This document shows, in pieces, positions 2,296-34,417 of a stretch of DNA of 64,000 bases. A model generated the notes under the pieces. It had not been told where the DNA came from. It saw nothing but the letters and a program-made list of their open reading frames with translations, and did not search any database. Position 1 is the stretch's first letter. Every line of letters begins with the position of its first letter. The translations under genes were made by a program, and so were the position numbers. This stretch comes from Escherichia phage cardinal. The DNA is taken from sequence record PQ567651.1. One strand, given 5' to 3'.

Positions 2296-2531
2296 AAAAA
2301 GAAATTTTAACTGATGTAACATATTCTTGTATTAGCAAAGGTGGTTTATATCGTGTAGTTGGCTTTCCTAAACCAGCGGGTGTATCTAAAGTATTTGATC
2401 CTGTTGTGATCTACGAAGATGTAAGGACTGGTCAACAGTATTGGCGATTCCAGCAAGATTTCTTACACCGTATGGAGGTTGTTGATGGCGAAAACACCGA
2501 AGAAGCGATCCGTAACAAAGCACGCATCTAA
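2292..2531 (+). CDS. hypothetical protein
   Basis: track ORF, start overlaps previous stop (ATGA). Confidence 0.5.
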   Translation: MKKEILTDVTYSCISKGGLYRVVGFPKPAGVSKVFDPVVIYEDVRTGQQYWRFQQDFLHRMEVVDGENTEEAIRNKARI

Positions 2532-4148: not shown

Positions 4149-4699
4149 TGTTTATTACAAGTGATTTGCATTTTATGCACAAACGTATCCGAGAGTTTGC
4201 TCCTGAATATCGCCCGTGGGAAGATATGGAGCATATGACAGAAGCACTGATCGAAGCATGGAATAAATGTGCCACAACACCAGGAGTAAAGATGTACCAT
4301 CTTGGGGACTTCTGTTTCGGGACTGAAGAAGATACCCGTAAGATTGCTTCCCGTCTCCAAGGGGATATTACTTACTGTGTTGGGAACCATGATTATAGTA
4401 AACACAGAAAAGTGCTTGCAGAGTATGGAGAAGTTGTGTATTATGACGAAGTGAAATATCAGAAGCTGTTCTTCGTCTTAAGCCATTACCCTATGGCTGC
4501 CTGGAATAAACAAGGGCATGGATCAATCATGCTACACGGACACTCTCACGGATCATTCCCTGATCATTTGTATGGGAAAATGTTGGATGTTGGTTGGGAT
4601 GCACACGGGAAAATCTTGCATTTTGACGAAATCATCTCTATTATGGATAAGCGTGATATTGTTGTTGTAGACCATCATAAGATAATCAAAGGAGATTAA
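4148..4699 (+). CDS. calcineurin-type metallophosphoesterase
   Basis: MPP motifs SDLHF, GDFCFG, GNHD, HGHSHG in order. Confidence 0.7.
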   Translation: MFITSDLHFMHKRIREFAPEYRPWEDMEHMTEALIEAWNKCATTPGVKMYHLGDFCFGTEEDTRKIASRLQGDITYCVGNHDYSKHRKVLAEYGEVVYYDEVKYQKLFFVLSHYPMAAWNKQGHGSIMLHGHSHGSFPDHLYGKMLDVGWDAHGKILHFDEIISIMDKRDIVVVDHHKIIKGD

Positions 4700-4700
4700 G

Positions 4701-5633: not shown

Positions 5634-6038
5634 ATGAAACAACTTATCATTTTACGTGGTGTTTCAGGCGCAGGTAAATCTACAGTAGCAGAAATTATTT
5701 CTGAAGGTTATTGGCCTATCTGTGAGGCAGATCAATATCATTACACAGAAAACGGTGTTTACGATTGGAAGCCAGAAAATGTAGGTAAAGCACACTCATG
5801 GTGTCAGAGTATTGTTCGTGATGCTATGGCATCTAATATTAAAAAGATTATTGTCTCTAACACTTCAACCACAGAGAAAGAACTTAAACCTTATTTTACT
5901 ATTGCTGAAGAGTTTGGTTATCAAGTTATCTCTTTAGTTGTTGAAAATAGGCACGGTAACGACTCAATTCATGAGGTTCCACAACATATTCGTGATCAGC
6001 AAGAGAAACGTCTTCGCAGTTCACTTAAGCTACAATAA
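5634..6038 (+). CDS. polynucleotide kinase-like P-loop kinase (T4 Pnk kinase domain-like, no HAD phosphatase domain)
   Basis: N-terminus MKQLIILRGVSGAGKSTVA (Walker A) closely resembles T4 Pnk MKKIILTIGCPGSGKSTWA. Confidence 0.6.
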   Translation: MKQLIILRGVSGAGKSTVAEIISEGYWPICEADQYHYTENGVYDWKPENVGKAHSWCQSIVRDAMASNIKKIIVSNTSTTEKELKPYFTIAEEFGYQVISLVVENRHGNDSIHEVPQHIRDQQEKRLRSSLKLQ

Positions 6039-6793: not shown

Positions 6794-7895
6794 TCCTACA
6801 TTATACGGCAAAACTTCTACAGGTAAAATTAAACAATGGTCAGTCTATACCGAAGGTAGTGTTGTAACTGTTGCTCATGGTCAATTAGGTGGAAAGATTA
6901 CTAGCAAATCTTATACAGCAGAACCTAAAAATATTGGTCGCTCAAATGAAACAACAGCAGAAGAACAAGCTGAAATAGAAGCTCTTGCCAAATGGACAAA
7001 GCAACTTAAGAGTGGGTATTATAAAACAAAAGAGGAAGCTGAAAATCATGTTCCTTCCACACCCATGAAATGTCAGGATTATAAAGATTATGCTGATCGT
7101 GTTTTGTTCCCAGGTTATGCACAATATAAATTGAATGGTCTACGTTCAATGATTAACATGCAAGGTGAATGTTTATCTAAAGCTGGGGAGGTATATAAAC
7201 TTCCACCTCACTGGGAAGAAATTCCAACCTTCATTAAAGAAGTAGTTGGTCATCCTCTTGACGGTGAAGTTTTTGCTGGTTTGGGTGTCCTTAGCCTTCA
7301 ACAAATTAATAGTGCGTGGAAAAAGCATAATGCTAACACACCACTTCTTAAATACTATGTATATGATGTTCCTGTGGCATCTGTACCATTTGAGAAGAGG
7401 GTTCAAGTTTTGGCTGCGCTAAAAGAAGTTGTTGAAGATAAAGGTTTAGATGAACTTATTTGTGTAGTACATACAGAGTACATTGAAAACCAAGAACAGT
7501 TTGATGCTTTCTATGCAAAAGCTCTACGTGAGAAAGCGGAAGGTGTGGTGTATCGTAACGCACAAGGTGTTTACGAGTTTGATAAACGTTCTTATGATGT
7601 TATTAAACGTAAACCACGACAGACGCTTGAAGTTAAAGTGGTAAGTGCAAAGCGTGATAAAAATGGTGACGGGGTATTGACAGGCGAGATGGAAAATGGT
7701 AAAGTAGTCGAATTCCTGATGCGTAAGGATTCAGATGAAACCATTAACTATCGTAAAGCAGAAAATGCCGAAATGTTAATTGGTAAATTTGTTGAGATTG
7801 AGTATGAAGAGTTTTCCGATGGTGGAATACCTACGAAACCAACAGGTGTCCGTTTACGTAAGATGATTCCAGGTACTTGGGAACCAGCAGAGTAA
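6780..7895 (+). CDS. ATP-dependent ligase-like nucleotidyltransferase (DNA or RNA ligase)
   Basis: ATG after GGAGG; candidate motif I YKLNGLR (KxNGxR); track ORF starts upstream at 6732. Confidence 0.5.
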   Translation: MKQTNPTLYGKTSTGKIKQWSVYTEGSVVTVAHGQLGGKITSKSYTAEPKNIGRSNETTAEEQAEIEALAKWTKQLKSGYYKTKEEAENHVPSTPMKCQDYKDYADRVLFPGYAQYKLNGLRSMINMQGECLSKAGEVYKLPPHWEEIPTFIKEVVGHPLDGEVFAGLGVLSLQQINSAWKKHNANTPLLKYYVYDVPVASVPFEKRVQVLAALKEVVEDKGLDELICVVHTEYIENQEQFDAFYAKALREKAEGVVYRNAQGVYEFDKRSYDVIKRKPRQTLEVKVVSAKRDKNGDGVLTGEMENGKVVEFLMRKDSDETINYRKAENAEMLIGKFVEIEYEEFSDGGIPTKPTGVRLRKMIPGTWEPAE

Positions 7896-16526: not shown

Positions 16527-18791
16527 GTGACTCAGTATCTAAGCAAATCTATCCGTTATGTAACAAAAACAAACGGCAAGAAAGAAGAATTTAATCCAGA
16601 AAAACTTCGTAAATGGTCAGAGTTTGCTGCTGGTAAATTAAATTGGTCTGAAATTGAACTCGAAGCTGTTAAACGTTGTTACGACGGTGTGCCTACTCGT
16701 GATTTACATAAAGCTATGATAGCAGCATGTATTGATAAGAAAGATCAGGCATATAGTGATATGGCAGGTCGGTTACTTCTTGGTATGATTTATAAACAGG
16801 CTCATGGGGGATATCACAATATCCCCTCCCTCCTGGATTTCTACAATATGTCTGTAAGTAAAGGCTATTGGGGAAAAATGGATTATACAGAAGAAGAAAT
16901 TATTGAGATTGGTAAAATTGTCAATCATGATAAAAACCTAACTTATGGTTATTCCGTACTGCGCCAGATGGTTGATAAGTATCTTGTGAAAGATGCGATC
17001 AATGATGTGGTTTTTGAATCACCACAATTTTTATTCATTGGTGTAGCAATGAAGGTAATGGAAATTCAACCAAAAGATCGCAGAGTAGAAGACATTAAAC
17101 GTCTATATACCTACGTAAGTGATCTTAAGATTAATTTACCATCACCTTATTTAACAACGTTGCGTACTAAGATTAAAGGTAGTGCTTCTTGTTGTCTGTT
17201 TAGAGCAGATGATACAGCAGAATCTTTAGCAATTGCTAACTATCTTGCTCATGAATATACATTGAATAATGCAGGTATTGGTGTTAACCTCCAAACCCGT
17301 GCTACAGGACAAGGTGTTAAGAACAACCGTATCGTTCACGGTGGTCTTTTACCATATCTGAAATGGATGGAAACAAGTGTTGGAGCATCAAAACAAGCAA
17401 GCCGTGGTGGAAGTGCAACAGTAACGTTTACAATATTAGAACCTGATTTTGAAGATCTGGTACGTTTGAAAAACCCAACTACTGTTAGTGAAAAACGAGT
17501 AGATAAACTTGATTACTCTATTGTAGTAAACAATGCTTTCCTGCGCCGTGCAGCAAAAGGTAAAGATTGGATGCTAGTCAGTTATGACGAAGCACCAGAA
17601 CTCTATGAGGCGCTTTATAAAAGCGAGGAAGAGTTTGAAGAAGTATATGAAAAAGTTAGTCGCAAACGAATTAAGAAGAAGTTTGTAAAAGCACGAGATC
17701 TTCTGGCAGAAATTATTACACAAAGAGCAGAGACAGGACGTATTTATATGTTCTTTGCGGATAATGCTAATAAGCATACTCCGTTTAAGGATGTTATTTA
17801 TCAGTCCAACTTGTGCCAAGAAATTTTCTTACCTACGAAAGCATTTCACAGTATGACTGATCTTTTCACAGGTGAGAATACAGAAGACCAAGAATTGGCA
17901 TTATGCTTCCTGTCTTCTATTGTAGCTGGTCGTGTTACACCAGAAGAATATGAAGATGTTGCATATTATACCGTTCTAACTATTGATAATGTTATTGAAA
18001 CAATGCAGTATCCGTTTAAACATAACGAAATCACTGCTAAAGCACGTAGGTCTATCGGTGTAGGTATTACAAACCTGGCACATTATCTGGCAAGTAATTT
18101 TGTTACTTATTCAGATCCTTACGGCAAAAAACTAATTCACGAATTAGCAGAAAGACATTATTACTGGTTAGCAAGAGCTTCTCTTCGTTTGGCAAAAGAG
18201 AAAGGTAATGCAGAATGGATGCATAAAACCAAGTGGCCTGAAGGATGGTTGCCTATTGATACCTACGCTAAAGCTGTAGACGATATTGGCAATTTTAAAC
18301 TTAAAATGGATTGGGAAGGTTTACGACAAGATATCATTGCACAAGGTGGTATCCGAAATAGCGTATTAGCAGCTATTGCTCCAAATGAGTCCAGTAGTCT
18401 TGTAAGTAATACGACTAACTCTGTGTATCCTGTACGTGATACTATAGTTTATAAACAAAGCCAAAAGGGTAATGTTCTGTTTATTGTGCCAGACTACGAT
18501 AAACTAAAAGATATTTACCAATCGGCTTGGGATACACCAGATAAAGATATGGCTGAAGCATATGGACTGTTGACTAAATTCTTAGATCAAGGTGCATCAT
18601 GTGATAAGTGGATTGACTATTCTAAGATGGAAGGTGGTCGTTTATCCATTAAATCAGAAATGCAATATATTCTTCAGTTTGCAAAACTTGGTGGTAAATC
18701 TTTGTACTACCTAAATAGCAGAACAAAATCGGCATCCTCACTCGCTCAAGAAGATTCTGAAGACGAGGGGTGTAGCGCCTGTAAAATGTAA
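16527..18791 (+). CDS. nrdA: ribonucleoside-diphosphate reductase large subunit
   Basis: 754 aa; N-terminal ATP-cone-like region, C-terminal Cys pair CSACKM, overall class Ia NrdA organisation. Confidence 0.85.
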   Translation: MTQYLSKSIRYVTKTNGKKEEFNPEKLRKWSEFAAGKLNWSEIELEAVKRCYDGVPTRDLHKAMIAACIDKKDQAYSDMAGRLLLGMIYKQAHGGYHNIPSLLDFYNMSVSKGYWGKMDYTEEEIIEIGKIVNHDKNLTYGYSVLRQMVDKYLVKDAINDVVFESPQFLFIGVAMKVMEIQPKDRRVEDIKRLYTYVSDLKINLPSPYLTTLRTKIKGSASCCLFRADDTAESLAIANYLAHEYTLNNAGIGVNLQTRATGQGVKNNRIVHGGLLPYLKWMETSVGASKQASRGGSATVTFTILEPDFEDLVRLKNPTTVSEKRVDKLDYSIVVNNAFLRRAAKGKDWMLVSYDEAPELYEALYKSEEEFEEVYEKVSRKRIKKKFVKARDLLAEIITQRAETGRIYMFFADNANKHTPFKDVIYQSNLCQEIFLPTKAFHSMTDLFTGENTEDQELALCFLSSIVAGRVTPEEYEDVAYYTVLTIDNVIETMQYPFKHNEITAKARRSIGVGITNLAHYLASNFVTYSDPYGKKLIHELAERHYYWLARASLRLAKEKGNAEWMHKTKWPEGWLPIDTYAKAVDDIGNFKLKMDWEGLRQDIIAQGGIRNSVLAAIAPNESSSLVSNTTNSVYPVRDTIVYKQSQKGNVLFIVPDYDKLKDIYQSAWDTPDKDMAEAYGLLTKFLDQGASCDKWIDYSKMEGGRLSIKSEMQYILQFAKLGGKSLYYLNSRTKSASSLAQEDSEDEGCSACKM

Positions 18792-18798
18792 TGAAACT

Positions 18799-18822
18799 AG
18801 GGGGCTTTGTCCCCCTTTCTTA
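18799..18822 (+). terminator. hairpin aggggg-ctttgt-ccccct + T-rich tail
   Basis: located right after nrdA stop. Confidence 0.5.
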
Positions 18823-18831
18823 AGGAGGAAT

Positions 18832-19167
18832 ATGCCTACATTAGTTGTATTACCTGGAGCAACACCACAAAGACATTGGGGAAATTATACACTGGTAGAT
18901 AGTAAAGATTTTACATTCGATTGGTGTTGCCATTATATTGCAGGTTTTCAATTTTCCAGTGTTGAAATATGGGCTTCCAATGATCCAGAAGCTACCTGGT
19001 ATGCTTTAACCAGGGCAAGATATGATGGAGAGGTTACTGTACTACTCACAAAGAGTGTATGGAACGCATTAGAGAAGGCTTACATAGAGAATGGTATGGA
19101 GAGAAAACACATTGATACAATAAAAGCAATGTGTGATATTGTGGAGGATTTAAATGGCAGCGATTAA
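18832..19167 (+). CDS. hypothetical protein
   Basis: track ORF between nrdA and nrdB. Confidence 0.5.
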   Translation: MPTLVVLPGATPQRHWGNYTLVDSKDFTFDWCCHYIAGFQFSSVEIWASNDPEATWYALTRARYDGEVTVLLTKSVWNALEKAYIENGMERKHIDTIKAMCDIVEDLNGSD

Positions 19168-20239
19168 TTTATACAACGACACTTACAAAGAAGGTTTCTA
19201 CCCTGTATTTTTGGGAGAACAGTTAGGTATTTTTGATTCTATTAACGTAACATACCCAGAAATGCATCGTCTGTACAAACTACAAAAACAGCAAGATTGG
19301 GATGAAAACGAAGTAAACTTAGATCAGACACGAAAAGATTTCGTAGCTTGTTCTAAAAGCAACTATGATGTTATGATCAAAAACCTATCCTTCCAATGGG
19401 AAAATGATTCACTTGCTAAATCAATCATCACTTTGTTTGCACCATTTTTAAGCAACAACGAAGCATGTGCAATGATGATGAAGCAATCAGAAATGGAAGT
19501 TTTACACGCTTTGACATATTCTGAAATTATTCGTCAGTGTATCCCTAATCCAAATGAAGTTATCGATCAGATTATGGAGAACGAAAGAATCTTCCAGAGG
19601 ATGGGTATAGTTGAAGAGATAATGAGTGATCTGGCAGAGGCAGGGCATAAATATGCTCTAGGTCTGATTGAGAAGGATGATAACCTTCGTCTACTGATTC
19701 TGAAAGGAATGATTGCACTTATCGGTCTGGAAGGCATTCAATTCATATCATCTTTTGCTGCAACATTTGCCTTAGCAGAGCAGCAATTGTTTGTAGGTGC
19801 AGCTAAACTCATTCAAAAAATTATGTTGGATGAACTATTGCACGTTAAAATGGATTATGCTATTATTGATGCACTGCTGAAAGATCCTGTTTGGAGAAAA
19901 GTATACGAAGACAATATCGACGTTCTGACAGAAATTCTTGACACGGTAGTTGGACAAGAGGAAGATTGGTGTGACTATCTGTTTAGTGAAGGAAGGGTTA
20001 TCGTTGGTGGTAACGCAGAGTTGTTCAAACTTTGGGTTTACTTCAATGCCGCGCCTATCTATCGCAGACTGAAAATGAAACACAAATTCCGTGCACCGAA
20101 GAAAAGTCCACTGCCTTGGATGGATGTTTGGTTAAATCCAGATCAAATTCAAGCAGCAGCACAGGAGATCCAAATTACAGCTTACAAACTGAATTCAGCA
20201 AATAAAGATGTAAGTGATGACGAGGAGTTAGACTTCTAA
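19154..20239 (+). CDS. nrdB: ribonucleoside-diphosphate reductase small subunit
   Basis: 361 aa; position after nrdA and iron-ligand-like E/H-containing helices; C-terminal acidic tail DDEELDF. Confidence 0.8.
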   Translation: MAAINLYNDTYKEGFYPVFLGEQLGIFDSINVTYPEMHRLYKLQKQQDWDENEVNLDQTRKDFVACSKSNYDVMIKNLSFQWENDSLAKSIITLFAPFLSNNEACAMMMKQSEMEVLHALTYSEIIRQCIPNPNEVIDQIMENERIFQRMGIVEEIMSDLAEAGHKYALGLIEKDDNLRLLILKGMIALIGLEGIQFISSFAATFALAEQQLFVGAAKLIQKIMLDELLHVKMDYAIIDALLKDPVWRKVYEDNIDVLTEILDTVVGQEEDWCDYLFSEGRVIVGGNAELFKLWVYFNAAPIYRRLKMKHKFRAPKKSPLPWMDVWLNPDQIQAAAQEIQITAYKLNSANKDVSDDEELDF

Positions 20240-20457
20240 TGAAACTACTTTGTGTTGGATTAATTTCTGACTTCAAAGACGTTTTCGAAAAGGGAGCCTC
20301 TTATGAGGCTTCCGAATTACAGAATGGTTTCTGTGATGTTTACGGCAAACGTTTAAAAAAGAATGGTGATCATTGGCTAGGAGTTATGTCTTGCGGTCAT
20401 ATTATAGTTAATGGTGTAGCCAAGTTTGAAATTATCAAAGGAGAAAAAGATGATTGA
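20239..20457 (+). CDS. hypothetical protein
   Basis: track ORF. Confidence 0.45.
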   Translation: MKLLCVGLISDFKDVFEKGASYEASELQNGFCDVYGKRLKKNGDHWLGVMSCGHIIVNGVAKFEIIKGEKDD

Positions 20458-20632
20458 TTTTGTTGATGTAGATATTAATTCTGACTTAACAGAAGATGAA
20501 GGTGGTGCTTTTGTGTGTTCAGATGGAGAGAAATGTTTTACTCTGATGGTAGAAACTTATGATGGTATCACAGAAATTCTGTTAACAGAGAATGAGTTAA
20601 AACAGATGTTAGAAAAGATTGAGGAGCTTTAA
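20450..20632 (+). CDS. hypothetical protein
   Basis: ATG after GGAGAAAAAG within track ORF 20426..20632. Confidence 0.45.
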   Translation: MIDFVDVDINSDLTEDEGGAFVCSDGEKCFTLMVETYDGITEILLTENELKQMLEKIEEL

Positions 20633-20634
20633 TA

Positions 20635-20781
20635 ATGGACGATGTAAGTATTTGTCCTATCTGCGGCGGCACTGGGAATTTTATTGTTAGTATGGAACAA
20701 TTTATTCCTTGTTGGAATTGTAACGGTTTAGGTTTCGTTCATACGGAAGAAAAAGAAGAGGAGGAAGATAATGGGAACTAA
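20635..20781 (+). CDS. small Cys-pair (zinc-ribbon-like) protein
   Basis: 48 aa, CPICGG...CWNCNG; RBS GAGGAG; below track size cutoff. Confidence 0.35.
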   Translation: MDDVSICPICGGTGNFIVSMEQFIPCWNCNGLGFVHTEEKEEEEDNGN

Positions 20782-21097
20782 TATTGAATGGCGTATGTTA
20801 CAGGGTGCGCCTTTTAATAAATGGGAAGAGGCTGTAGGAGAAGATCCTAGAATTGAAGAAGAATTTGATGGAGATTTTAACTGGTTCTTACAAGAAGGTC
20901 TTGATTTAAGTCGTATCTCTCCTTTCTATGACGCTGATGAATCTTACTGCATATATGGCATTTATTTAGAAGGTGGCGAAGGAAGTATAGCTGTAGATCT
21001 TGAGCAACTAAATAAGAATGCAAAAGAAGCCTATGCACAACTTCTTGAAAAATATAACATTGAAACGGAAACTATTATTTCTCAACACGTTTGGTAA
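20771..21097 (+). CDS. hypothetical protein
   Basis: track ORF. Confidence 0.5.
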   Translation: MGTNIEWRMLQGAPFNKWEEAVGEDPRIEEEFDGDFNWFLQEGLDLSRISPFYDADESYCIYGIYLEGGEGSIAVDLEQLNKNAKEAYAQLLEKYNIETETIISQHVW

Positions 21098-21110
21098 GGA
21101 GGATAGTAGA

Positions 21111-21308
21111 ATGATGCTAGATCAACTGATCAATGCTCCTCGCGTAACAGTAAGTCCAAAAACATTTGCATCACTTTTAGAAGATGCTAGAGAGGTTTAT
21201 AACTTTACTGAAGAAGAGATTCCTGTTCCTGTTGAAAAAGGTTCCAGATGGTTGTTTTATGAAGGTATTATTTTTACTGAAGGGAATAATTGGAAGGAGA
21301 CTAAATGA
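21111..21308 (+). CDS. hypothetical protein
   Basis: ATG after AAGGAGG within track ORF 21018..21308. Confidence 0.45.
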   Translation: MMLDQLINAPRVTVSPKTFASLLEDAREVYNFTEEEIPVPVEKGSRWLFYEGIIFTEGNNWKETK

Positions 21309-22213
21309 AATACTTAGTAACAGGTGGTTTAGGCTTTATTGGAAGTGCGGTAGTTCGTTTCCTGGCTAAAAACACTAAGAATGATATTTACGTTATAGAT
21401 AAATGGAGTTACGCTTCAGACCCTAGAAATTTATCAGAAACACCTAATGTAAAGTTTTGTCGTGTTGACTTGACAAATGCTCAGTTAACTGCTAAGATTG
21501 TGGCAGATGTTAATCCAGATTATATAATGCATCTTGCAGCAGAAAGTCACGTAGATAACTCAATAGCATCACCGAGTGTTTTTATAAATTCAAATATTGT
21601 TGGAACATTTAATCTTCTAGAAGCTGTTCGTTTAATGGGAGATAAATCAAATCTTAAAATGTTTCATCATATTTCAACAGACTATGTTTTTGATGGGCAT
21701 GTTGCTGGCACAGAAGATAGTAAAACAAACCCCTTGAACACCTACGGTTACAGTAAACAATTAGGTGAAACTTTAGTACAAACAGTTTGTCCTACAGCAC
21801 TTATTATCAGAACAGCTTCTGTTTATAGTGAATTTGGACATAACTTTTTGAAAACTATGTTGGAACGCTACAACGGTGGTCAAAAAGAATTTAATGTAGT
21901 ATGTGATCATTTATCATGTCCTACTTATGCACCTGATCTTGCAGAAACAATTTTTAAACTTGTAAAAGATGGTGTAAATAGTAAAATTGTACACTATGCA
22001 GGTGCAGATTATATTTCTTGGTATGATTTTGCACGAAAGATATTTCTTGTTATAGATTTATCTGTTACAGTTAATCCTGTATCTGCTTCAACCTATAATT
22101 CCAAAGCAGTCAGACCAGCAACATCTTATTTAAGAACAGATCCTACTTTAAATCCGCGAAGTGTTGATAGCGGTATTGTAAGAGCTTTAACTATACTTTT
22201 AAACAAGGAGTGA
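21305..22213 (+). CDS. NAD(P)-dependent epimerase/reductase, RmlD (dTDP-4-dehydrorhamnose reductase)-like
   Basis: Rossmann VTGGLGFIGS and STDYVFDG motif characteristic of RmlD-type reductases. Confidence 0.5.
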   Translation: MKYLVTGGLGFIGSAVVRFLAKNTKNDIYVIDKWSYASDPRNLSETPNVKFCRVDLTNAQLTAKIVADVNPDYIMHLAAESHVDNSIASPSVFINSNIVGTFNLLEAVRLMGDKSNLKMFHHISTDYVFDGHVAGTEDSKTNPLNTYGYSKQLGETLVQTVCPTALIIRTASVYSEFGHNFLKTMLERYNGGQKEFNVVCDHLSCPTYAPDLAETIFKLVKDGVNSKIVHYAGADYISWYDFARKIFLVIDLSVTVNPVSASTYNSKAVRPATSYLRTDPTLNPRSVDSGIVRALTILLNKE

Positions 22214-22476
22214 AAATGAATTTTATTATCTACGGTAAACCAAATTGTCCTTTCTGCACTAACGCTAAGATTCTACTAGAACAGCGTGAACAGGATTTTA
22301 AATACCTTACCTTAGATGAAGACTATTCTTTAGATCAGATTCAGAATCTGGTTTTAGAGAAAACAGGTGTTCTACCACGCACATTTCCTCAGATTTTTGT
22401 GGAAGATGGTGAACAGCTAACCCACGTAGGAGGTTTTTCTGAACTACGTGAATTCATGGCTCAGATTGCGGAGTAA
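22210..22476 (+). CDS. glutaredoxin / NrdH-like redoxin
   Basis: 88 aa with CPFC active site and thioredoxin-fold length. Confidence 0.75.
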   Translation: MKMNFIIYGKPNCPFCTNAKILLEQREQDFKYLTLDEDYSLDQIQNLVLEKTGVLPRTFPQIFVEDGEQLTHVGGFSELREFMAQIAE

Positions 22477-22480
22477 CAAT

Positions 22481-22624
22481 ATGAAAGGTAAACAGAAACG
22501 TAAAATCTTTTCTCGTGCTTTGGCAACAGAGCTTAAGTCCCAAACTAAAAAGACGAAGCCTAAACGTGAAATGTCTCCTGAACACCTACTGTTTCAAGAG
22601 TTAGATCATGGGGAGGGCGACTGA
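22481..22624 (+). CDS. small basic protein
   Basis: 47 aa ORF with RBS GGAG; below track cutoff. Confidence 0.3.
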   Translation: MKGKQKRKIFSRALATELKSQTKKTKPKREMSPEHLLFQELDHGEGD

Positions 22625-22636
22625 TATAAGGAAAAC

Positions 22637-23137
22637 ATGGCTAAAGTAGTTGATGTGTTTGATATGTTACGTTTTGATGAAGGACTAAAGCTAACTGTGT
22701 ATCCTGATACCGAAGGGTATTGGACAGTTGGTATTGGACACCTTCTGACAAAACTCAAAGATAAAGCAGAAGCTATACGTATTCTTGATAACTTAGTAGG
22801 TAGAAAAACCAATGGGGTTATTACTGAAGCGGAAGCTAGAAGAATCTTTGAGAGTGACGTAAAGAAAGCGATACAACAAATCCATTCAAGTGCCATATTA
22901 TCTCCTATTTACGATAAAGTAAGTCCTAATCGTAAAATGGCTATTATTAATATGGTATTTCAAATGGGATTGAAAGGTGCAGAATCTTTCAAAAATAGCT
23001 TGACTTTAGTGAGTAATTCATATTATACTCAAGCCTCTATAAATTTACGTAAAAGTAAATGGTATCGCCAAACACCTAATCGCGCAGAGCGTGTAATTCA
23101 GGTACTTAAAACTGGAACATTAGACGCTTATAACTAA
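22637..23137 (+). CDS. T4-type lysozyme (GH24 endolysin)
   Basis: MLRFDEGLKLTVYPDTEGYWTVGIGHLLTK and WYRQTPNRAERVI closely match T4 lysozyme. Confidence 0.85.
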   Translation: MAKVVDVFDMLRFDEGLKLTVYPDTEGYWTVGIGHLLTKLKDKAEAIRILDNLVGRKTNGVITEAEARRIFESDVKKAIQQIHSSAILSPIYDKVSPNRKMAIINMVFQMGLKGAESFKNSLTLVSNSYYTQASINLRKSKWYRQTPNRAERVIQVLKTGTLDAYN

Positions 23138-23140
23138 ACA

Positions 23141-23162
23141 AAGGGGCGAAAGCCCCTTTTAT
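23141..23162 (+). terminator. rho-independent terminator ggggc-gaaa-gcccc + TTTT
   Basis: same hairpin sequence as at 12404 and 34425. Confidence 0.7.
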
Positions 23163-23175
23163 AAGGAGTGCAAAC

Positions 23176-23928
23176 ATGGGAAATAAAACCGCAAAGGCTC
23201 GTCGTCAATCAGCAGCCAATGATGACAAACGTGCCAGTCGTTATGCGGCTAAAGCAGTAGGAAATGATGATTACCGTCTTGATGAATTTACCCCTGTTGG
23301 GAATCAAGAAGCTATTGTAAGAAGCATGGTTTGGAATGATTTAACCATTGTTAATGCCCCAGCAGGAACAGGAAAAACGACAACAGCACTATGGAAAGCA
23401 TTGCAAATGCTTAAAGCTGGTGATTTCAGAAAGTTGATTTTCCTTAAAAACCCGACAGAAGTAGGTGATGATCAAATTGGTTTCTTATCTGGAGATAAGA
23501 CTGATAAACTAGCAGCACATTACGAATCAACTAAAAGAATTTTCCAACAGTTTATGACTGCAAATAAATTGGAAAACGATATTGCAAGTGGCAAAATTGA
23601 ACTTAATATTCCAAACTATGCACTAGGTGCTACGTGGGATAACAGCATTATTCTTATTGATGAAGTTCAACTTATGTCACCAAATACAGTAAAACTTCTC
23701 CTTGAGCGAGCAGGTCTTAATACACGTATTGTCATTATGGGTGATGTTAATCAAACATATGCAATTAAACGAAGAGCTAATGGGTTAGGTGATTTGTTAG
23801 ATCGTGTTGTTCCTATTAACGAAGAAGGAGAAAGGGAAGCTATTGTAGATTTTATTGGTTATGTTGAAATGACAACTGCTGATAACCAACGTTCCCGTTT
23901 GTCTCAGTTCATCACGGAAGTATATTAA
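23176..23928 (+). CDS. phoH: PhoH-like ATPase
   Basis: Walker A NAPAGTGKTTTAL and PhoH-like overall organisation. Confidence 0.8.
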   Translation: MGNKTAKARRQSAANDDKRASRYAAKAVGNDDYRLDEFTPVGNQEAIVRSMVWNDLTIVNAPAGTGKTTTALWKALQMLKAGDFRKLIFLKNPTEVGDDQIGFLSGDKTDKLAAHYESTKRIFQQFMTANKLENDIASGKIELNIPNYALGATWDNSIILIDEVQLMSPNTVKLLLERAGLNTRIVIMGDVNQTYAIKRRANGLGDLLDRVVPINEEGEREAIVDFIGYVEMTTADNQRSRLSQFITEVY

Positions 23929-23964
23929 TAATTACAAGGCAAGGATGCCTGTTATGGAGGTTAA

Positions 23965-24456
23965 ATGACGCTAATTGAGATTGATCGCAATGGTATTGAT
24001 GAATGCTATCAAGCTGGCTTAGTTAAGCCGAATGAGTTTAGACAGATTTATATTGACAAGATTGAAAAAGAAATATCTCTTCGTTTAGAGAACATGACAA
24101 CTTTGCAAAAAGTTCAGATGTTTTTTAGTTGGTTGAAAGGAGAGGATTGGCTAACTAAATATTACCAGGAATTATCTGATAGTCAAGAAGGCTTGTTTGA
24201 GTGTATAATAAATGTAGCTGGGTCTAATTCAGAGTTACTCCTGATTGATGAAGAAGATTCTAAACTTCTTTTTCTTAGCAGTATTTTTCACAAGAAATCT
24301 ATGTTAGTAAGAAATTGCAGTGATTTACTAAATCATCCACTAACAAGAACTAATAAAATTCTTGTGGATAAAGAAACACTAAGAGCTATTGATTACCTCC
24401 GTAAATATGTAAGCGGTGGTAAAGCAGTCCTTAAAACACTACAGGAGGAAGTATAA
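23965..24456 (+). CDS. hypothetical protein
   Basis: track ORF. Confidence 0.5.
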   Translation: MTLIEIDRNGIDECYQAGLVKPNEFRQIYIDKIEKEISLRLENMTTLQKVQMFFSWLKGEDWLTKYYQELSDSQEGLFECIINVAGSNSELLLIDEEDSKLLFLSSIFHKKSMLVRNCSDLLNHPLTRTNKILVDKETLRAIDYLRKYVSGGKAVLKTLQEEV

Positions 24457-25109
24457 TGACAACAATTATTGCAACACGTAACAAAATTTTGTCTGACGGT
24501 AAGGTAACAGTAGGTAGTCGTGTAGACACTTTAAACTTCAAGAAAGTGCGTAAAATTGGGGACTACCTTGTTGGTGGTGCAGGACGTCTGTCTTCTATCC
24601 TGACTTTCTTTTCTTGGTTTGAACAAAACTTACAATGCCAGGCAGCACAAGAGACAATCCCAGGTTTGGTGATCCAGTCAGATCCCGATAAAGAAGATGA
24701 AGAGTTTGTGGCATTGGTTGTTCATCCAGATGGTAAAATTTATATGCACGAGGGTAATAATCCAACGCGAGCATATCCTTTAACTGAAGATTATTATGCT
24801 GTTGGTAGTGGGGCAGATTTTGCTTTAGCAGCTTTAGATGCAGGGGCAACTCCAGAAGAAGCGATGGAAGTTGCAAAACTGCGAGATGCTTTTTCCGGCG
24901 GTGAAACTTTTATCGAAGAGATCGAAGAACAACTGGAGTTAACAGCGGAAGATATTCTGAACTTCAGCAAGGAGCAACTAATTAGTATGCTGTTGACTGG
25001 TGATCCTGATAGCGATGAAGCTGAAAGTATTTTAGCAGAAATGAAAGAATCACAAGAAAAAGTATTGACAGTCTCTGAAAAACTTGATAAAGTGTCCTCT
25101 GATAATTAA
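24456..25109 (+). CDS. HslV-like Ntn-hydrolase peptidase with acidic C-terminal extension
   Basis: MTTIIATR (Thr right after Met) and YAVGSGADFALAA resemble HslV TTIV.. and AIGSGG motifs. Confidence 0.5.
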   Translation: MTTIIATRNKILSDGKVTVGSRVDTLNFKKVRKIGDYLVGGAGRLSSILTFFSWFEQNLQCQAAQETIPGLVIQSDPDKEDEEFVALVVHPDGKIYMHEGNNPTRAYPLTEDYYAVGSGADFALAALDAGATPEEAMEVAKLRDAFSGGETFIEEIEEQLELTAEDILNFSKEQLISMLLTGDPDSDEAESILAEMKESQEKVLTVSEKLDKVSSDN

Positions 25110-26090: not shown

Positions 26091-26321
26091 ATGACCGAGA
26101 AATTTATTGTTACTATGGAACTCACCTTTGATGAAGAAGATTTTGATCTTCATGTATCAACTAAAGCAGATAACATTCACACAACACAGAGTGTTGCAAT
26201 CGCTATGTTCTTTAAACAAGCTATTGCAAAACAAGCTGAAGTATGTGCTGGTTTAGCTGTAGAGTATGCAGAAGTTGTCAAGGTTCTTGAAAGTGCTCGT
26301 AACGGCGATTGGGATGAATAG
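26091..26321 (+). CDS. hypothetical acidic protein; ends at TAG followed by in-frame open extension
   Basis: ATG after GGAGCA; TAG stop at 26319..26321. Confidence 0.5.
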   Translation: MTEKFIVTMELTFDEEDFDLHVSTKADNIHTTQSVAIAMFFKQAIAKQAEVCAGLAVEYAEVVKVLESARNGDWDE

Positions 26322-26528
26322 TGGCATACAATTACTATCTGGTATATTTTTAACGAAACTAAGAAAAAAGACACAGGAACTAATGTTTATGCGGAATCCG
26401 AAGAACACGCAAAAGCTATTGGTTCAGTGCTTCTTTCTAGAATAGCAGGTGAAGAAATTCCTGTAGAGGCTATCTTTGCAGAAGTTGACCCTAGTATTCA
26501 AGAGGATGGTATTACCACTACTTAACTG

Positions 26529-26557
26529 TTGACTTTAACATTAAGGTAGTGCATACT
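26529..26557 (+). promoter_or_regulatory. sigma70-like promoter TTGACT-17-CATACT upstream of recombinase gene
   Basis: -35/-10-like hexamers followed by AGGAGGG RBS. Confidence 0.4.
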
Positions 26558-26582
26558 TCCTGTAACAGAACAGGAGGGTATT

Positions 26583-27245
26583 ATGAAGTTTGTACTATAT
26601 CATCGACTTTCTAAGAAGAAACAACAAGGCAACCAGTATGGTATAGAATCACAGGAAGCAGATATTCAACGCTTCCTGGATTCACAAGAAAATTATACTA
26701 TTGTAGGTAGCTTTGCAGAGTTTTATTCGGGTAAAGGCGATTGGAAGCAACGTAGAGAGCTTGTAAAAGCTGTTAATCTTTGCAAAGAAACAGGTGCTAC
26801 ACTTGTTGTTGCTAAGGTTGACCGTCTTGGACGTAACACAGCTTCTGTTGCAACCTTGTTAGAGATGATCAATGTACGAATAGCAACTATGCCCTCCGCT
26901 GAAAATATGATAATAAATATTTTAGCAGTTCTGGCAGAAGAAGAGGCTCGTGCAATATCTGATCGTGTTAAGAAGAGCCTTAAGGTAGCAAAAGCGAAGG
27001 GAACGCTTCTTGGTGCAGCAAACCCTAAATACAAAAGAACAGATTATAAGAAAACGGAAGAAGCAAAACGCTCAAGAGAGTTTGCGCTTTCTTTAAAAGA
27101 TTCTTTAGTTGCATACAGAGCTTGTAAAACGCCATATATGACGATTGCAAAGCATCTGAATGAATCAGGAAAGAGAACTATTCGTGGGAGTTTGTTCGAT
27201 GCCAAAGCGGTACAACGTCTTTGTGCAAAATTGAATATTAAATAA
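26583..27245 (+). CDS. serine recombinase (resolvase/invertase family)
   Basis: YHRLS (catalytic Ser context), VAKVDRLGRN, EEEARAISDRVKKSL motifs. Confidence 0.75.
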   Translation: MKFVLYHRLSKKKQQGNQYGIESQEADIQRFLDSQENYTIVGSFAEFYSGKGDWKQRRELVKAVNLCKETGATLVVAKVDRLGRNTASVATLLEMINVRIATMPSAENMIINILAVLAEEEARAISDRVKKSLKVAKAKGTLLGAANPKYKRTDYKKTEEAKRSREFALSLKDSLVAYRACKTPYMTIAKHLNESGKRTIRGSLFDAKAVQRLCAKLNIK

Positions 27246-31284: not shown

Positions 31285-32274
31285 ATGAAAGTTTTAAGTC
31301 TTTTTGATGGTATGTCAGGAGGAATGCTTGCGCTAAAAAGTGCAGGTATTGAAGTAGATACATATTATGCTTCAGAATTAGACAAATTCGCCATAGCTGA
31401 AAGCCAAGCAAATTTTCCAGATATTATTCAGTTAGGTGATGTTACAAAATGGAGAGAATGGGATATCCCGTGGGGAGAAATTGATCTTTTGTTAGGTGGT
31501 AGTCCGTGTCAAGGCTTCTCTTCTTCTGGTAAGGGTTTGAACTTTCAAGATCCGCGATCTAAGCTATTCTTCGAATATGTTGAGATTCTTGAACATATTA
31601 AAAAGTTTAACCCTAATGTTAAGTTCATGCTTGAAAACGTTAAGATGAAAGTGGAGTGGGAAAACGTGATCACAAGTTACTTAGGTGTTGATCCCGTATT
31701 CATTAACTCCGCAGATTTCACGGCACAGAATAGACAACGTTTATACTGGTGCAACTGGGAAATAAAGCCTTGGGATATTACCAATGCAGTGCTGCAAGAT
31801 ATCATTGAAGATGATAGTATTGTAGACAGAGATAAGGCTTATTGCATAGATGCAAATTATGCCAAAGGTGGTAATATAGAACAGTATTTTGAAAAGAGTC
31901 GCAGACAACTGGTTTTTTATCCGGCAGCAATATATGGGCGTAGAATTAATGAAAATGGCAAACGTAGTACATCTAAAACTGATCGTTTGGTACATTGTTT
32001 GGAAGTTCAGGACAGTGAAAAAACTCGTTGCCTCACGACTGTGCCTAAAGACGTACTATTAGCTTACATTCCACCTGGAAGATATCTAGATGCCTTTGAA
32101 AAATTAAGTGAAGGCGTACATTATAGAAAGTTAACGGTTAAAGAGTGTTGCCGCTTGCAAGGTGTGCCAGATGACTACTTTAAAGTGAGTAGTAACACAC
32201 AAGCATATAAGATGTTAGGTAACGGTTGGACTATACCTGTCATTGCACATATTCTTAAATGTATGGAGGAATAG
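31285..32274 (+). CDS. DNA (cytosine-5)-methyltransferase
   Basis: SLFDGMSGG (motif I), GGSPCQGFS (PCQ motif IV), ENV, CCRLQGVPDDY, GNGWTIPVI. Confidence 0.8.
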   Translation: MKVLSLFDGMSGGMLALKSAGIEVDTYYASELDKFAIAESQANFPDIIQLGDVTKWREWDIPWGEIDLLLGGSPCQGFSSSGKGLNFQDPRSKLFFEYVEILEHIKKFNPNVKFMLENVKMKVEWENVITSYLGVDPVFINSADFTAQNRQRLYWCNWEIKPWDITNAVLQDIIEDDSIVDRDKAYCIDANYAKGGNIEQYFEKSRRQLVFYPAAIYGRRINENGKRSTSKTDRLVHCLEVQDSEKTRCLTTVPKDVLLAYIPPGRYLDAFEKLSEGVHYRKLTVKECCRLQGVPDDYFKVSSNTQAYKMLGNGWTIPVIAHILKCMEE

Positions 32275-33062: not shown

Positions 33063-33617
33063 ATGGGTTTTGATGATATGTTATTATATGAGGAGGCTTG
33101 TGTGAAAGAAGCTATGGCTTTACCAGTTTTATCTATTGATATTACAACAGTAGACACTTTTTCAGATTGTGAAACGTGTGGATCGTATTCAAGTATTGTA
33201 CATGTGGTCTGTGGGGATTTAGGCACTTACGAAGATGGAGATTATGCAAGTTGTTTAGGTGATAATCAAGATGGTGAAGTGGCAAATGTTGCAAACTGGA
33301 TTGCTTCTAAGTTAAAAGAAAGAAATCGTCCGTTCCCTAATCTTCTTACACCAGAAGCTATGCTTAAAGCTGAACAAGAGATGTATGATTATGGTTATAA
33401 AGTAGATTATGACTATAATGATCCTAATTATAAAAAATTGAGTGACAAGTATTGGGAACTAGCTAACGCTTATGATAAATACTACTCTACAGAAAACATT
33501 GTTAAATTGTTTTTAGATTTTGGAGTAGAAATTAATTGGGATTTCGAAGAGGAAGAGCGTTACGACGCATCTTCTTGGGATGATGATTACGAAGAGGATA
33601 TTGAATGCGAAGAGTAA
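33063..33617 (+). CDS. hypothetical acidic protein
   Basis: ATG after GGAGG within track ORF 33048..33617. Confidence 0.5.
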   Translation: MGFDDMLLYEEACVKEAMALPVLSIDITTVDTFSDCETCGSYSSIVHVVCGDLGTYEDGDYASCLGDNQDGEVANVANWIASKLKERNRPFPNLLTPEAMLKAEQEMYDYGYKVDYDYNDPNYKKLSDKYWELANAYDKYYSTENIVKLFLDFGVEINWDFEEEERYDASSWDDDYEEDIECEE

Positions 33618-34417
33618 TTTTTGTTAGTGGCGCAGGACTATCTGTGGATAGCGGTATCCCAGCTTTTAGAACAGATACTTCTTCAGGGGAGGCGTTATGG
33701 TCTTCTTATGATCTTTCTGAGGTTTGTGACATTTTCAACTTCCGTGACGGTTATCAGCAAGAACAAGGTGTTCTTGATGCTATGGGTGGTTTAGATGCGG
33801 AAGGATATAACCTCTACCGTAAAACTCACGACTTTTACAATAAACGTCGCGTGGAATTAGAGAAAGTTGACCCGAATCCAGCACATCTTCAGATTGGAGA
33901 ATGGTTCAAAAAATATGGCCCAGAACGAATTATTAACATTACTACTAACGTGGATGACCTCCTTGAACGAGCAGGAGTAGATAGGGAAGAAGTGCTACAT
34001 GTGCACGGTTTTCTTCCTGAAATTACTTTTCAAAGAAAAGCCGGACAACCTACAATTGTAAAAGATGTTGGTTATCAAGCCATAGATGTAGATGACTACC
34101 ATTATGTAAAACCTAATGTAATTTTCTTTGGGGAAGCTGCTCCACTTTACACGGATATGTATTATATTTTTGATACACTGACGGCTCAAGATTTGGTTGT
34201 AGTAGTAGGATGTTCAAACCAAGTTATCAATTTTAATTGGGAATTATTCCCTGCACTTAATATGGGTACAAAAATGATCGTTGTTAACCCAGGAATTAAT
34301 TACGAAGAAACTCTTCTTTACGAAGATAGAGGAGTCTTTGTTTATCGAGAAAAGGCCGCAGATGCTTTTAGCAATCCTGCTTTCATAAAAATGATAGAAG
34401 ATCATTTGACTAAATAA
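33605..34417 (+). CDS. Sir2-family (sirtuin-like) NAD-dependent protein
   Basis: VSGAGLSVDSGIPAFR, TTNVDDL, HG, PNVIFFGE, VVGCS match sirtuin motifs. Confidence 0.7.
   Translation: MRRVIFVSGAGLSVDSGIPAFRTDTSSGEALWSSYDLSEVCDIFNFRDGYQQEQGVLDAMGGLDAEGYNLYRKTHDFYNKRRVELEKVDPNPAHLQIGEWFKKYGPERIINITTNVDDLLERAGVDREEVLHVHGFLPEITFQRKAGQPTIVKDVGYQAIDVDDYHYVKPNVIFFGEAAPLYTDMYYIFDTLTAQDLVVVVGCSNQVINFNWELFPALNMGTKMIVVNPGINYEETLLYEDRGVFVYREKAADAFSNPAFIKMIEDHLTK

What the first reader, a model, noticed from the sequence alone, without database searches (positions are those of the whole stretch)
21305..22476. RmlD-like NAD(P)-dependent sugar reductase next to glutaredoxin in the nucleotide-metabolism block
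A protein with a Rossmann GxxGxxG motif and the RmlD-type STDYVFDG motif lies between the nrdAB-containing gene cluster and a CPFC glutaredoxin. Sugar-nucleotide reductases are unusual in phage nucleotide operons and could relate to DNA sugar modification or cofactor metabolism.
Basis: inference. Interest (0 to 1): 0.4.

Follow-up and report, generated by a model that had tools for sequence, protein, structure and literature searches.

The report
Deletion-made RmlB–RmlD hybrid gene in phage
The supposed phage "sugar reductase" is a hybrid gene left when 2,353 bases were deleted between two related genes, which removed the phage's four-gene rhamnose-sugar pathway; the same deletion seems to have happened several times in related phages.

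Summary
The ORF at 21305-22213 (302 aa) is real and carries the reported motifs, but it is not an ordinary RmlD. The window is a phi92/muut-like E. coli myovirus (Justusliebigvirus, about 99% identical). In 53 of 55 database relatives this position holds an intact rmlB-rmlA-rmlC-rmlD cluster, a feature already noted in the literature.

The window lacks 2,353 bp of that cluster. The breakpoints lie in a 14-bp direct repeat, CATATTTCAACAGA, which encodes the shared active-site motif H-I-S-T-D and is the longest exact direct repeat in the cluster. The result is an in-frame fusion of RmlB residues 1-121 to RmlD residues 96-276. rmlA and rmlC are gone, as are the catalytic and substrate-binding part of RmlB and the Rossmann half of RmlD.

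The same junction occurs in at least three other sequencing runs, in phage strains about 2% diverged. Their haplotypes differ 1-4 nt from the repeat, which suggests recurrent independent deletions. Two other deletions hit the same cluster: Eryne (rmlB::rmlA, at a 12-bp repeat) and DRR502128 (out of frame).

The hybrid models as a confident SDR fold with the Thr/Tyr/Lys triad. It is most likely a by-product with no selected function. The neighbouring CPFC glutaredoxin belongs to the nrdAB module. Interest is modest.

The parts
21305..22213 (+). Hybrid ORF (302 aa): RmlB N-terminal part fused in frame to RmlD C-terminal part.
   Evidence: ORF. Two blastn pieces against muut overlap by 14 bp. Protein identities to muut are 125/126 (RmlB part) and 180/182 (RmlD part). 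Split family hits in NCBIfam and PDB.
21295..21299 (+). AGGAG ribosome-binding site inherited from rmlB. The start codon overlaps the stop of the upstream ORF.
   Evidence: Sequence. The same site is annotated as the RBS of phi92 gene 067.
21305..21667 (+). rmlB-derived segment (codons 1-121). It carries the Rossmann beta1-beta5 half with GGLGFIG (aa 7-13, nt 21323-21343) and the HLAAESHVD motif.
   Evidence: 99.3% nucleotide identity to muut rmlB, L001 4306-4668. PDB phmmer gives aa 1-146 against RmlB 1g1a, E 3.8e-31.
21668..21681 (+). Deletion junction: the 14-bp sequence CATATTTCAACAGA (codons H122-I-S-T-D126). Intact relatives have it once in rmlB and once in rmlD, 2,353 bp apart.
   Evidence: family D2, spacing 2353. 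It is the longest exact direct repeat in the cluster. No variable site falls in either copy among 16 other alleles.
21682..22213 (+). rmlD-derived segment (RmlD residues 101-276 plus stop). It carries YVFDG, the catalytic Y147-xxx-K151 (nt 21743-21757) and the substrate-binding domain.
   Evidence: 99.4% nucleotide identity to muut rmlD, L001 7036-7567. PDB phmmer gives aa 54-276 against RmlD 3sc6, E 8.6e-33. S124, T125, D126, Y147 and K151 are invariant in alignment A1.
22216..22476 (+). Glutaredoxin (86 aa, CPFC at aa 11-14), nrdC-like. It belongs to the nucleotide-reductase module, not to the sugar gene.
   Evidence: Pfam PF00462, E 9.4e-12. NCBIfam glutaredoxin models match below their cutoffs. 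The same gene follows rmlD in muut, ESCO9 and phi92. RBS and ATG seen.
16527..20239 (+). Context: nrdA (16527-18791), a polymorphic small ORF (18832-19167) and nrdB (19154-20239).
   Evidence: Pfam families on the identical Logan contig L002, the ORF list and the muut annotation.

Best explanation
The ORF is the scar of a 2,353-bp deletion inside the phage's rmlB-rmlA-rmlC-rmlD (dTDP-L-rhamnose) cluster.

**How the deletion formed.** Slipped mispairing or illegitimate recombination between two copies of a 14-bp direct repeat joined rmlB codon 121/126 to rmlD codon 96/101. The repeat exists because both genes are paralogous extended SDRs and encode the same active-site motif H-I-S-T-D with the same codons. 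The breakpoints therefore sit at homologous codons, so the fusion is automatically in frame and the crossover falls at a structurally equivalent position, the end of strand beta5.

**What was lost.** rmlA and rmlC are gone entirely. So are RmlB's Asp-Glu/Tyr-xxx-Lys catalytic part and substrate domain, and RmlD's own dinucleotide-binding half. The phage can no longer make dTDP-rhamnose itself.

**What the hybrid probably does (inferred).** It is probably still translated, because rmlB's RBS and translational coupling are intact. It is most likely a by-product with no selected function.

**Recurrence.** The same junction is found in at least four different strain backgrounds. This points to a recurrent deletion hot spot in a cluster that is conserved but dispensable.

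**Shown and inferred.** Shown: the hybrid origin, the junction, the loss of genes, and recurrence of the junction in distinct haplotypes. Inferred: the slippage or recombination mechanism, expression, and lack of function.
For: **Hybrid origin and junction**
- Relatives at about 99% identity have 6,354 bp where the window has 4,001 bp. The muut annotation shows rmlB, rmlA, rmlC, rmlD and grx in that order.
- The two blastn pieces overlap on 14 identical bases, and both breakpoints are at codon position 1 of their genes.
- The hybrid is 125/126 identical to RmlB(1-126) and 180/182 identical to RmlD(96-276).
- tblastn finds no rmlA or rmlC anywhere in the 64-kb window.
- The 14-mer is the longest exact direct repeat in the cluster. 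The third longest, a 12-mer, is exactly the junction of the separate Eryne deletion.

**Rarity and recurrence**
- 53 of 55 Justusliebigvirus records keep the cluster contiguous at 98-100% identity, and none has this junction.
- The same 302-aa hybrid exists as 4 distinct sequences on contigs from SRR33749226 (identical to the window), SRR15051506, SRR21291464 and SRR33086886. Those contigs are about 98.1-98.4% identical to the window.
- In a 20-allele SNP table the four junction-bearing alleles are not each other's nearest neighbours. They differ 4 nt to the left (muut 4665) and 1 nt to the right (7036) of the repeat, and each matches a different intact haplotype. No substitution is shared only by deletion alleles.

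**Evidence that the hybrid protein is not the selected product**
- An out-of-frame deletion of nearly the same interval exists (DRR502128: RmlB' 145 aa plus 'RmlD 235 aa).
- The window's allele has 3 nonsynonymous and 1 synonymous private changes, against 9 nonsynonymous to 34 synonymous among the other alleles (Fisher p = 0.046).
Against: - The hybrid keeps an intact reading frame in all four variants.
- It retains GxxGxxG and the Ser/Thr-Tyr-Lys catalytic residues.
- AlphaFold2 models it as one compact SDR fold (pLDDT 92.3, pTM 0.90) that superposes on RmlD structures (TM 0.84/0.90 to 1vl0). Residual reductase activity therefore cannot be excluded.
- Repeated recovery of one junction could reflect selection for the hybrid rather than a mutational hot spot.
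- The relaxed-constraint signal rests on four substitutions and a 16-allele panel.
- Raw reads were not inspected, so a mixed population of intact and deleted genomes cannot be excluded.
- Only 64 kb of a roughly 146-kb genome was visible.
Confidence: 0.8

Rival explanations
1. The hybrid is a working enzyme. It would combine an RmlB-type NAD-binding half with an RmlD catalytic and substrate half, and reduce host-made dTDP-4-keto-6-deoxyhexose or a related sugar. Under this reading the recurrent in-frame deletion is an adaptive switch rather than a neutral scar.
For: - The fusion is in frame in four backgrounds.
- The catalytic S124/T125/Y147/K151 and GxxGxxG are retained.
- The AF2 model is confident and resembles RmlD.
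- The crossover is at a structurally equivalent position in the two paralogues.
- rmlB's RBS is kept.
Against: - The frame is preserved automatically at this repeat, so it does not indicate selection.
- An out-of-frame deletion of the same interval is also found in nature.
- The swapped 121 residues are only 33% identical to RmlD's own 95, with 27 extra residues, so the helix and sheet interfaces are non-native.
- E. coli hosts usually have their own RmlD (from general knowledge; not tested here).
- The window's allele carries an excess of private nonsynonymous changes.
- AF2 confidence does not measure the stability of chimeras.
Confidence: 0.12
2. It is an ordinary phage-encoded RmlD, a dedicated NAD(P)H sugar-nucleotide reductase.
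For: Pfam RmlD_sub_bind covers aa 1-279 with E 1.6e-54. The top NCBIfam hit is rmlD. Foldseek's top hits are RmlD structures.
Against: - The score is below the NCBIfam rmlD equivalog cutoff (187.1 against 224.05).
- The N-terminal 126 residues are 125/126 identical to the phage's RmlB and only about 33% identical to its RmlD.
- True RmlD in relatives is 276 aa and sits after rmlC.
Confidence: 0.02
3. The junction is an assembly or library artefact, and the real genome has the intact cluster.
For: The junction falls in a repeat. No GenBank isolate among 55 shows it. It has no hits in IMG/VR, JGI metagenomes or GTDB genomes.
Against: - A 14-15-bp repeat is shorter than the k-mers that assemblers normally use (from general knowledge; not tested here).
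- The identical junction appears in assemblies from four different sequencing runs with different flanking SNPs.
- The P0122 variant is also held in ENA as well as Logan.
Confidence: 0.02
4. The deletion arose once and spread to other strains by homologous recombination or gene conversion during co-infection. This is a rival only to the claim of recurrence.
For: These phages are mosaic and recombine readily; a recombinant between two related phages is documented in PMC10269720. The window and SRR21291464 share the same haplotype within about 100 nt of the junction.
Against: SRR15051506 differs at the first base after the repeat and SRR33086886 at 4 nt before it, and each matches alleles seen in intact phages. 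A single origin would need crossovers or conversion tracts ending within 1-4 nt of the junction. No derived substitution is shared by all deletion alleles.
Confidence: 0.25

Closest known systems
rmlB-rmlA-rmlC-rmlD cluster of phi92-like phages (Justusliebigvirus; phi92 gp067-gp064, muut_55-58)
   Same: Same locus, between the nrdB-proximal small ORFs and the glutaredoxin. The retained parts are 98-99% identical at nucleotide level.
   Different: The window lacks 2,353 bp: the 3' two-thirds of rmlB, all of rmlA and rmlC, and the 5' third of rmlD. One hybrid ORF stands in place of four genes.
RmlD, dTDP-4-dehydrorhamnose reductase (PF04321/TIGR01214; structures 1vl0, 3sc6, 1kbz, 4wpg)
   Same: Residues 122-302 are RmlD, with STDYVFDG, Y-xxx-K and the substrate-binding domain. 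The model has TM 0.84/0.90 to 1vl0.
   Different: The N-terminal dinucleotide-binding half comes from a different enzyme. The equivalog cutoff is not reached. No rmlA, rmlB or rmlC partners remain.
RmlB, dTDP-glucose 4,6-dehydratase (TIGR01181; structures 1g1a, 1bxk)
   Same: Residues 1-121 (up to 126 counting the shared motif) include GGLGFIG and HLAAESHVD. PDB E-values are about 1e-31 over aa 1-146.
   Different: After ISTD the sequence reads YVFDG instead of RmlB's EVYGD. RmlB's own Tyr-xxx-Lys and C-terminal substrate domain are missing.
Other natural deletions in the same cluster: Eryne (PQ529420) rmlB::rmlA fusion; DRR502128 contig with rmlB'/'rmlD; Phapecoctavirus ESCO37, which lacks rmlA and rmlB
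   Same: All are independent losses of the phage rhamnose pathway. Eryne's junction is also an exact direct repeat (12 bp, in frame) (PMC10269720).
   Different: They have different breakpoints. DRR502128 has only 2 bp of microhomology and is out of frame.
Deletions between short direct repeats in lytic phages (T4 rII, T7). This comparison is from my own knowledge of the classical literature and was not checked here.
   Same: One repeat copy and the intervening DNA are lost, and the longest repeats are hot spots.
   Different: Here the repeat is a conserved active-site motif shared by two paralogous enzymes, so the product is a structurally registered hybrid protein.

Membership tests
RmlD (dTDP-4-dehydrorhamnose reductase, NCBIfam TIGR01214 equivalog) | Whole-protein score at or above the curated equivalog cutoff (224.05 bits). 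| tested here: not met
   187.1 bits.
RmlD (Pfam PF04321 RmlD_sub_bind) | Score above the Pfam gathering threshold. | tested here: met
   185.3 bits against 27, aa 1-279. The Pfam model is broad and also scores the RmlB-derived Rossmann part.
RmlD | Catalytic Thr, Tyr-xxx-Lys and the STDYVFDG motif. | tested here: met
   T125, Y147, K151 and STDYVFDG at aa 124-131. S124, T125, D126, Y147 and K151 are invariant in A1.
RmlD | The N-terminal dinucleotide-binding half is orthologous to RmlD. | tested here: not met
   Residues 1-126 are 125/126 identical to phage RmlB. RmlB(1-121) is 33% identical (31/94) to RmlD(1-95), with 27 extra residues.
RmlD | NAD(P)H-dependent reduction of dTDP-4-dehydrorhamnose. 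| not testable with these tools
   Needs an enzyme assay.
RmlB (dTDP-glucose 4,6-dehydratase, TIGR01181) | Whole-protein score at or above the cutoff (365.1 bits), with full-length alignment. | tested here: not met
   137.8 bits, with only aa 2-164 aligned to model positions 1-168 of 321.
RmlB | TDE catalytic motif (Asp-Glu after Thr) and the RmlB C-terminal substrate domain. | tested here: not met
   The sequence reads ISTDYVFDG, not ISTDEVYGD. Everything after D126 is RmlD.
Complete rml (dTDP-L-rhamnose) pathway | rmlA, rmlB, rmlC and rmlD are all present. | tested here: not met
   tblastn of muut RmlA and RmlC finds nothing in the window, and 2,353 bp are missing. Genome outside the window was not seen. 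Relatives hold one place per record, apart from one split by a record start.
Glutaredoxin (PF00462), neighbouring gene at 22216-22476 | Pfam score above gathering threshold and a CxxC active site. | tested here: met
   45.4 bits against 22.9, with CPFC. The NCBIfam equivalog models (Grx3, GrxA) score below their cutoffs.
Phage DNA sugar-hypermodification system | A glycosyltransferase and/or a base hydroxymethylase encoded alongside the sugar-nucleotide genes. | tested here: not met
   No glycosyltransferase family was found at E <= 1e-4 among the 34 largest ORFs (about 150 aa or more) of the window. Only a C5 cytosine methylase and ThyX appeared. The scan was limited to 64 kb and to Pfam.

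The most novel reading that the evidence does not exclude
The 14-15-bp active-site repeat acts as a built-in, recurrent off-switch for the phage's rhamnose pathway. Under this reading the resulting RmlB::RmlD hybrid is a folded, NAD(H)-binding protein with a new or residual activity, for example reducing or sequestering host dTDP-4-keto sugars, and it is favoured on some hosts.
Probability: 0.1. Interest if true: 0.6.

Novelty: new variant of a known kind. Interest (0 to 1): 0.3.

Why it matters
**The intact cluster is an open question.** It is conserved in phi92-like phages and under purifying selection (9 nonsynonymous to 34 synonymous polymorphisms in the segments compared). Its purpose is unknown. 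The published guess, DNA glycosylation, sits badly with these phages' sensitivity to restriction systems.

**Natural knock-outs are available.** At least three junction types now mark natural loss of the pathway, and the one in this window has been recovered repeatedly. These phages are near-isogenic material for finding out what phage-made dTDP-rhamnose is for.

**A caution for annotation.** Pipelines will label this ORF "dTDP-4-dehydrorhamnose reductase" or "nucleotide-sugar epimerase" and so imply a pathway that is not there.

**A small point for protein engineers.** The hybrid is a natural, structurally registered crossover between two extended-SDR enzymes.

Tried and rejected
- **Junction searches in public collections.** A 26-29-mer spanning the junction gave 0 hits in IMG/VR, JGI metagenomes and GTDB genomes.
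- **Base rate from the intact rmlB site.** This failed. The FHHISTDEV-encoding 26-mer hits at least 120 unrelated environmental contigs and only 4 IMG/VR contigs, so it is not specific to this genus.
- **Origin of the sequencing runs.** A literature search for the SRA/ENA accessions found nothing, so the sample types are unknown.
- **Function of phage rml clusters.** Literature searches returned only the speculative remarks in PMC7552041 and PMC8594841.
- **Promoter and terminator scan.** The scan around the gene gave no more sites than shuffled sequence.
- **Glycosyltransferase search in the window.** Negative.
- **Assembly artefact.** Considered and rejected (see rivals).
- **Hybrid as the ancestral state.** Considered and rejected. 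Its two halves are about 99% identical at nucleotide level to rmlB and rmlD of relatives, 53 of 55 of which have the four-gene cluster.
- **Structure prediction.** It was run, but it cannot decide whether the chimera is stable or active.
Full report
**1. What is at the coordinates**

The + strand holds an ORF at 21305-22213 (302 aa, ATG start). An AGGAG site lies 6 nt upstream, and the start codon overlaps the stop of the preceding small ORF.

Next comes a glutaredoxin with CPFC (Pfam PF00462, E 9.4e-12). The ORF listing begins it at a GTG at 22210. The ATG at 22216, preceded by AAGGAG, matches the 86-aa gene annotated in relatives.

nrdA (16527-18791) and nrdB (19154-20239) lie upstream, with five small ORFs in between.

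**2. The family hits are split**

- Pfam gives RmlD_sub_bind over aa 1-279 (E 1.6e-54).
- NCBIfam's rmlD equivalog scores 187 bits, below its cutoff of 224.
- The second-best model is dTDP-glucose 4,6-dehydratase (RmlB), which aligns only to aa 2-164.
- Against PDB sequences, aa 1-146 match RmlB (1g1a, E 3.8e-31; 1bxk) and aa 54-280 match RmlD (3sc6, E 8.6e-33; 1vl0; 1kbz).

**3. Where the window comes from, and what relatives have here**

Window 20000-24000 is 98.7-99.3% identical to phi92-like E. coli myoviruses (Stephanstirmvirinae, Justusliebigvirus: ESCO9, muut, EmilieFrey, arall, phi92 and others). In every listed hit the 4,001-bp query maps as two pieces, and in nearly all of them they span about 6,354 bp.

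In muut the interval holds rmlB (329 aa), rmlA (289 aa), rmlC (184 aa), rmlD (276 aa) and then the glutaredoxin. phi92, ESCO9 and eight other records show the same order.

**4. The junction**

blastn of the window against muut gives two pieces: window 21000-21681 to L001 4001-4682, and window 21668-22600 to L001 7022-7954. They overlap on 14 bases.

The 14-mer CATATTTCAACAGA occurs in muut in rmlB (4669-4682) and in rmlD (7022-7035), 2,353 bp apart. In both genes it starts at codon position 1 and encodes H-I-S-T-D.

The window therefore carries RmlB(1-121) + HISTD + RmlD(101-276), which totals 302 aa. The hybrid is identical to muut RmlB at 125 of 126 residues and to muut RmlD at 180 of 182 residues. 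tblastn with muut RmlA and RmlC finds nothing in the 64-kb window.

The 14-mer is the longest exact direct repeat in the cluster. Only 4.5% of mononucleotide shuffles reach 14 (also family D2). It is invariant in all 16 other alleles examined.

**5. Is it unique?**

None of the 55 Justusliebigvirus records in the phage collection holds the hybrid ORF contiguously; all split it into two places.

- 53 records carry the muut cluster contiguous at 98-100% identity.
- One record (Paula) is merely cut by the record start.
- One record (Eryne) has a different deletion.

The hybrid is nevertheless not a one-off. The exact protein lies on a Logan contig of SRR33749226 that is 100% identical to the window over 12.9 kb. 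Its 90%-identity cluster holds four distinct 302-aa sequences. They come from SRR33749226, SRR15051506 (this variant is also held in ENA; longest contig 139,645 bp), SRR21291464 and SRR33086886.

All have the identical junction. Their flanks are only 98.1-98.4% identical to the window. One of them (L008) even has a different gene between nrdA and nrdB.

**6. One origin or several?**

I compared 583 nt to the left and 827 nt to the right of the junction in 20 alleles: 4 with this deletion, 2 with other deletions and 14 intact.

- The four junction-bearing alleles are not each other's nearest neighbours. Each is closest to some intact phage.
- They differ right at the junction. At muut 4665, 4 nt before the repeat, SRR33086886 has C and the others T. 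At 7036, the first base after the repeat, SRR15051506 has T and the others C; that T extends the repeat to 15 bp. There are further differences at 7052, 7072 and 7095.
- Every one of these states is seen in intact phages.
- No substitution is shared only by the deletion alleles.

The parsimonious reading is at least three independent deletions at the same repeat. A single origin followed by recombination would need exchange tracts ending within 1-4 nt of the junction. I cannot exclude it and give it about 0.25.

**7. Other deletions in the same cluster**

- Eryne (PQ529420) lacks 557 bp between two copies of an exact 12-mer, TTGAAGAAAAAC. This gives an in-frame RmlB::RmlA ORF of 436 aa.
- A contig from DRR502128 lacks 2,120 bp (muut 4721/6840) with only 2 bp of overlap and is out of frame. 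It leaves a 145-aa RmlB fragment and a 235-aa RmlD fragment.
- A paper reports a Phapecoctavirus (ESCO37) without rmlA and rmlB (PMC10269720).

The pathway is therefore repeatedly lost, and preserving a hybrid reading frame is not required.

**8. Can the hybrid work?**

In its favour, it keeps rmlB's translation signals. It keeps GxxGxxG and the residues S124, T125, D126, Y147 and K151, which are invariant in a 39-sequence alignment of RmlD and RmlB homologues. AlphaFold2 models it as one compact fold (pLDDT 92.3, pTM 0.90), with the crossover at the end of strand 119-124. Foldseek places the model nearest to RmlD structures (1vl0, TM 0.84/0.90) and close to RmlB as well.

Against it, the substituted half is only 33% identical (31/94) to RmlD's own and has 27 extra residues. 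The window's allele carries four private substitutions, three of them nonsynonymous (G35S, K277R, T294A), against 9 nonsynonymous to 34 synonymous polymorphisms among the other alleles (Fisher p = 0.046; small numbers). Without RmlA, RmlB and RmlC, a reductase would depend on host intermediates, and E. coli normally has its own RmlD (general knowledge, not tested here).

I therefore rate a selected function at about 0.1-0.15 and a by-product at about 0.8.

**9.

The full rml cluster in the nucleotide-metabolism region of these phages has already been called "peculiar", with DNA glycosylation suggested as its role (PMC7552041). The BASEL study found these phages exceptionally sensitive to restriction-modification systems despite the "putative dTDP glycosylation machinery" (PMC8594841).

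In the window, none of the 34 largest ORFs (about 150 aa or more) matches a glycosyltransferase family. The scan found a C5 cytosine methylase, ThyX, Sir2, NADAR, PhoH, ligases and others. I found no experimental work on the function of the cluster.

The glutaredoxin follows rmlD in every relative and is annotated as nrdC-like. It belongs with nrdAB.

**10. Verdict**

The feature is real, but the reading "RmlD-like reductase" is only partly right. It is a hybrid gene formed by deletion. It marks loss of a known, conserved but dispensable phage rhamnose pathway at a recurrent microhomology hot spot.

The novelty is a new variant of a known kind. The interest is modest: it offers natural knock-outs for an unexplained phage pathway, an annotation trap, and a natural SDR chimera.

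**Limits of this analysis**

- No raw reads were inspected.
- Only 64 kb of the genome was visible.
- The sample origins are unknown.
- The allele panel is small.
- Junction searches in IMG/VR, JGI metagenomes and GTDB genomes were negative.
- No genus-specific base rate could be obtained.

Noticed in passing
L005 (Escherichia phage Eryne PQ529420) 1707-3017; junction near L005 2626-2637: A separate 557-bp in-frame deletion fuses rmlB to rmlA into a 436-aa ORF annotated 'nucleotide-sugar epimerase'. Its junction is an exact 12-bp direct repeat, TTGAAGAAAAAC.
   Followed up: yes
L013 (Logan DRR502128 contig, 124 kb) 4567-5708: A third deletion type in the same cluster: 2,120 bp, 2-bp microhomology, out of frame. 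It leaves a 145-aa RmlB fragment and a 235-aa RmlD fragment (protein P0005, whose cluster has 8 member sequences).
   Followed up: partly
window 348-1241 (-): A PRPP-synthetase-like protein (PF00156, PF14572). In muut the same gene sits next to one annotated nicotinate phosphoribosyltransferase (muut_13/14). The pair looks like a phage NAD+ salvage or reconstitution module, which from memory is a possible counter-defence function.
   Followed up: no
window 18790-19137 (ORF 18832-19167): The slot between nrdA and nrdB is polymorphic. The window, L007 and L010 have a 111-aa ORF there. ESCO9 and L008 have an unrelated 218-aa ORF.
   Followed up: partly
window 24456-25109 (+): A 217-aa protein with a weak match to the proteasome subunit family (PF00227, E 1.6e-5), conserved in relatives as a 'hypothetical protein'.
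   Followed up: no
window 59539-60936 (-): A 465-aa protein with four CapR homology domains (PF21817, E 8.6e-50) plus a C-terminal T5orf172 domain.
   Followed up: no
window 31285-32274 and 33605-34417 (+): A C-5 cytosine DNA methyltransferase and a Sir2-family protein lie in the same early/metabolic arm. A NADAR-domain protein is also among the 34 ORFs scanned, but its position was not determined.
   Followed up: no
window 26200-26600 compared with L007 11017-11220: The window (and L002) lacks a 67-aa ORF that L007, L008 and muut carry just upstream of the resolvase/invertase gene (window 26583-27245). Other mosaic indels relative to ESCO9 lie at 33636-34106, 43839-44159, 45852-46736, 49351-49574, 56470-56830 and 57560-58287.
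   Followed up: no
GenBank MG065639, MG065645, MG065656, MG065689 (L024): Four UNVERIFIED records labelled 'Campylobacter phage' (A150, A145, C3, A110a) are 98.5% identical to E. coli Justusliebigvirus across this locus. The host label looks doubtful.
   Followed up: no
metagenome loci L029-L108: The 26-mer encoding FHHISTDEV of RmlB occurs verbatim in at least 120 contigs from marine, sediment and other metagenomes. This active-site stretch is conserved at nucleotide level in many AT-rich genomes and is not a marker for this phage genus.
   Followed up: no
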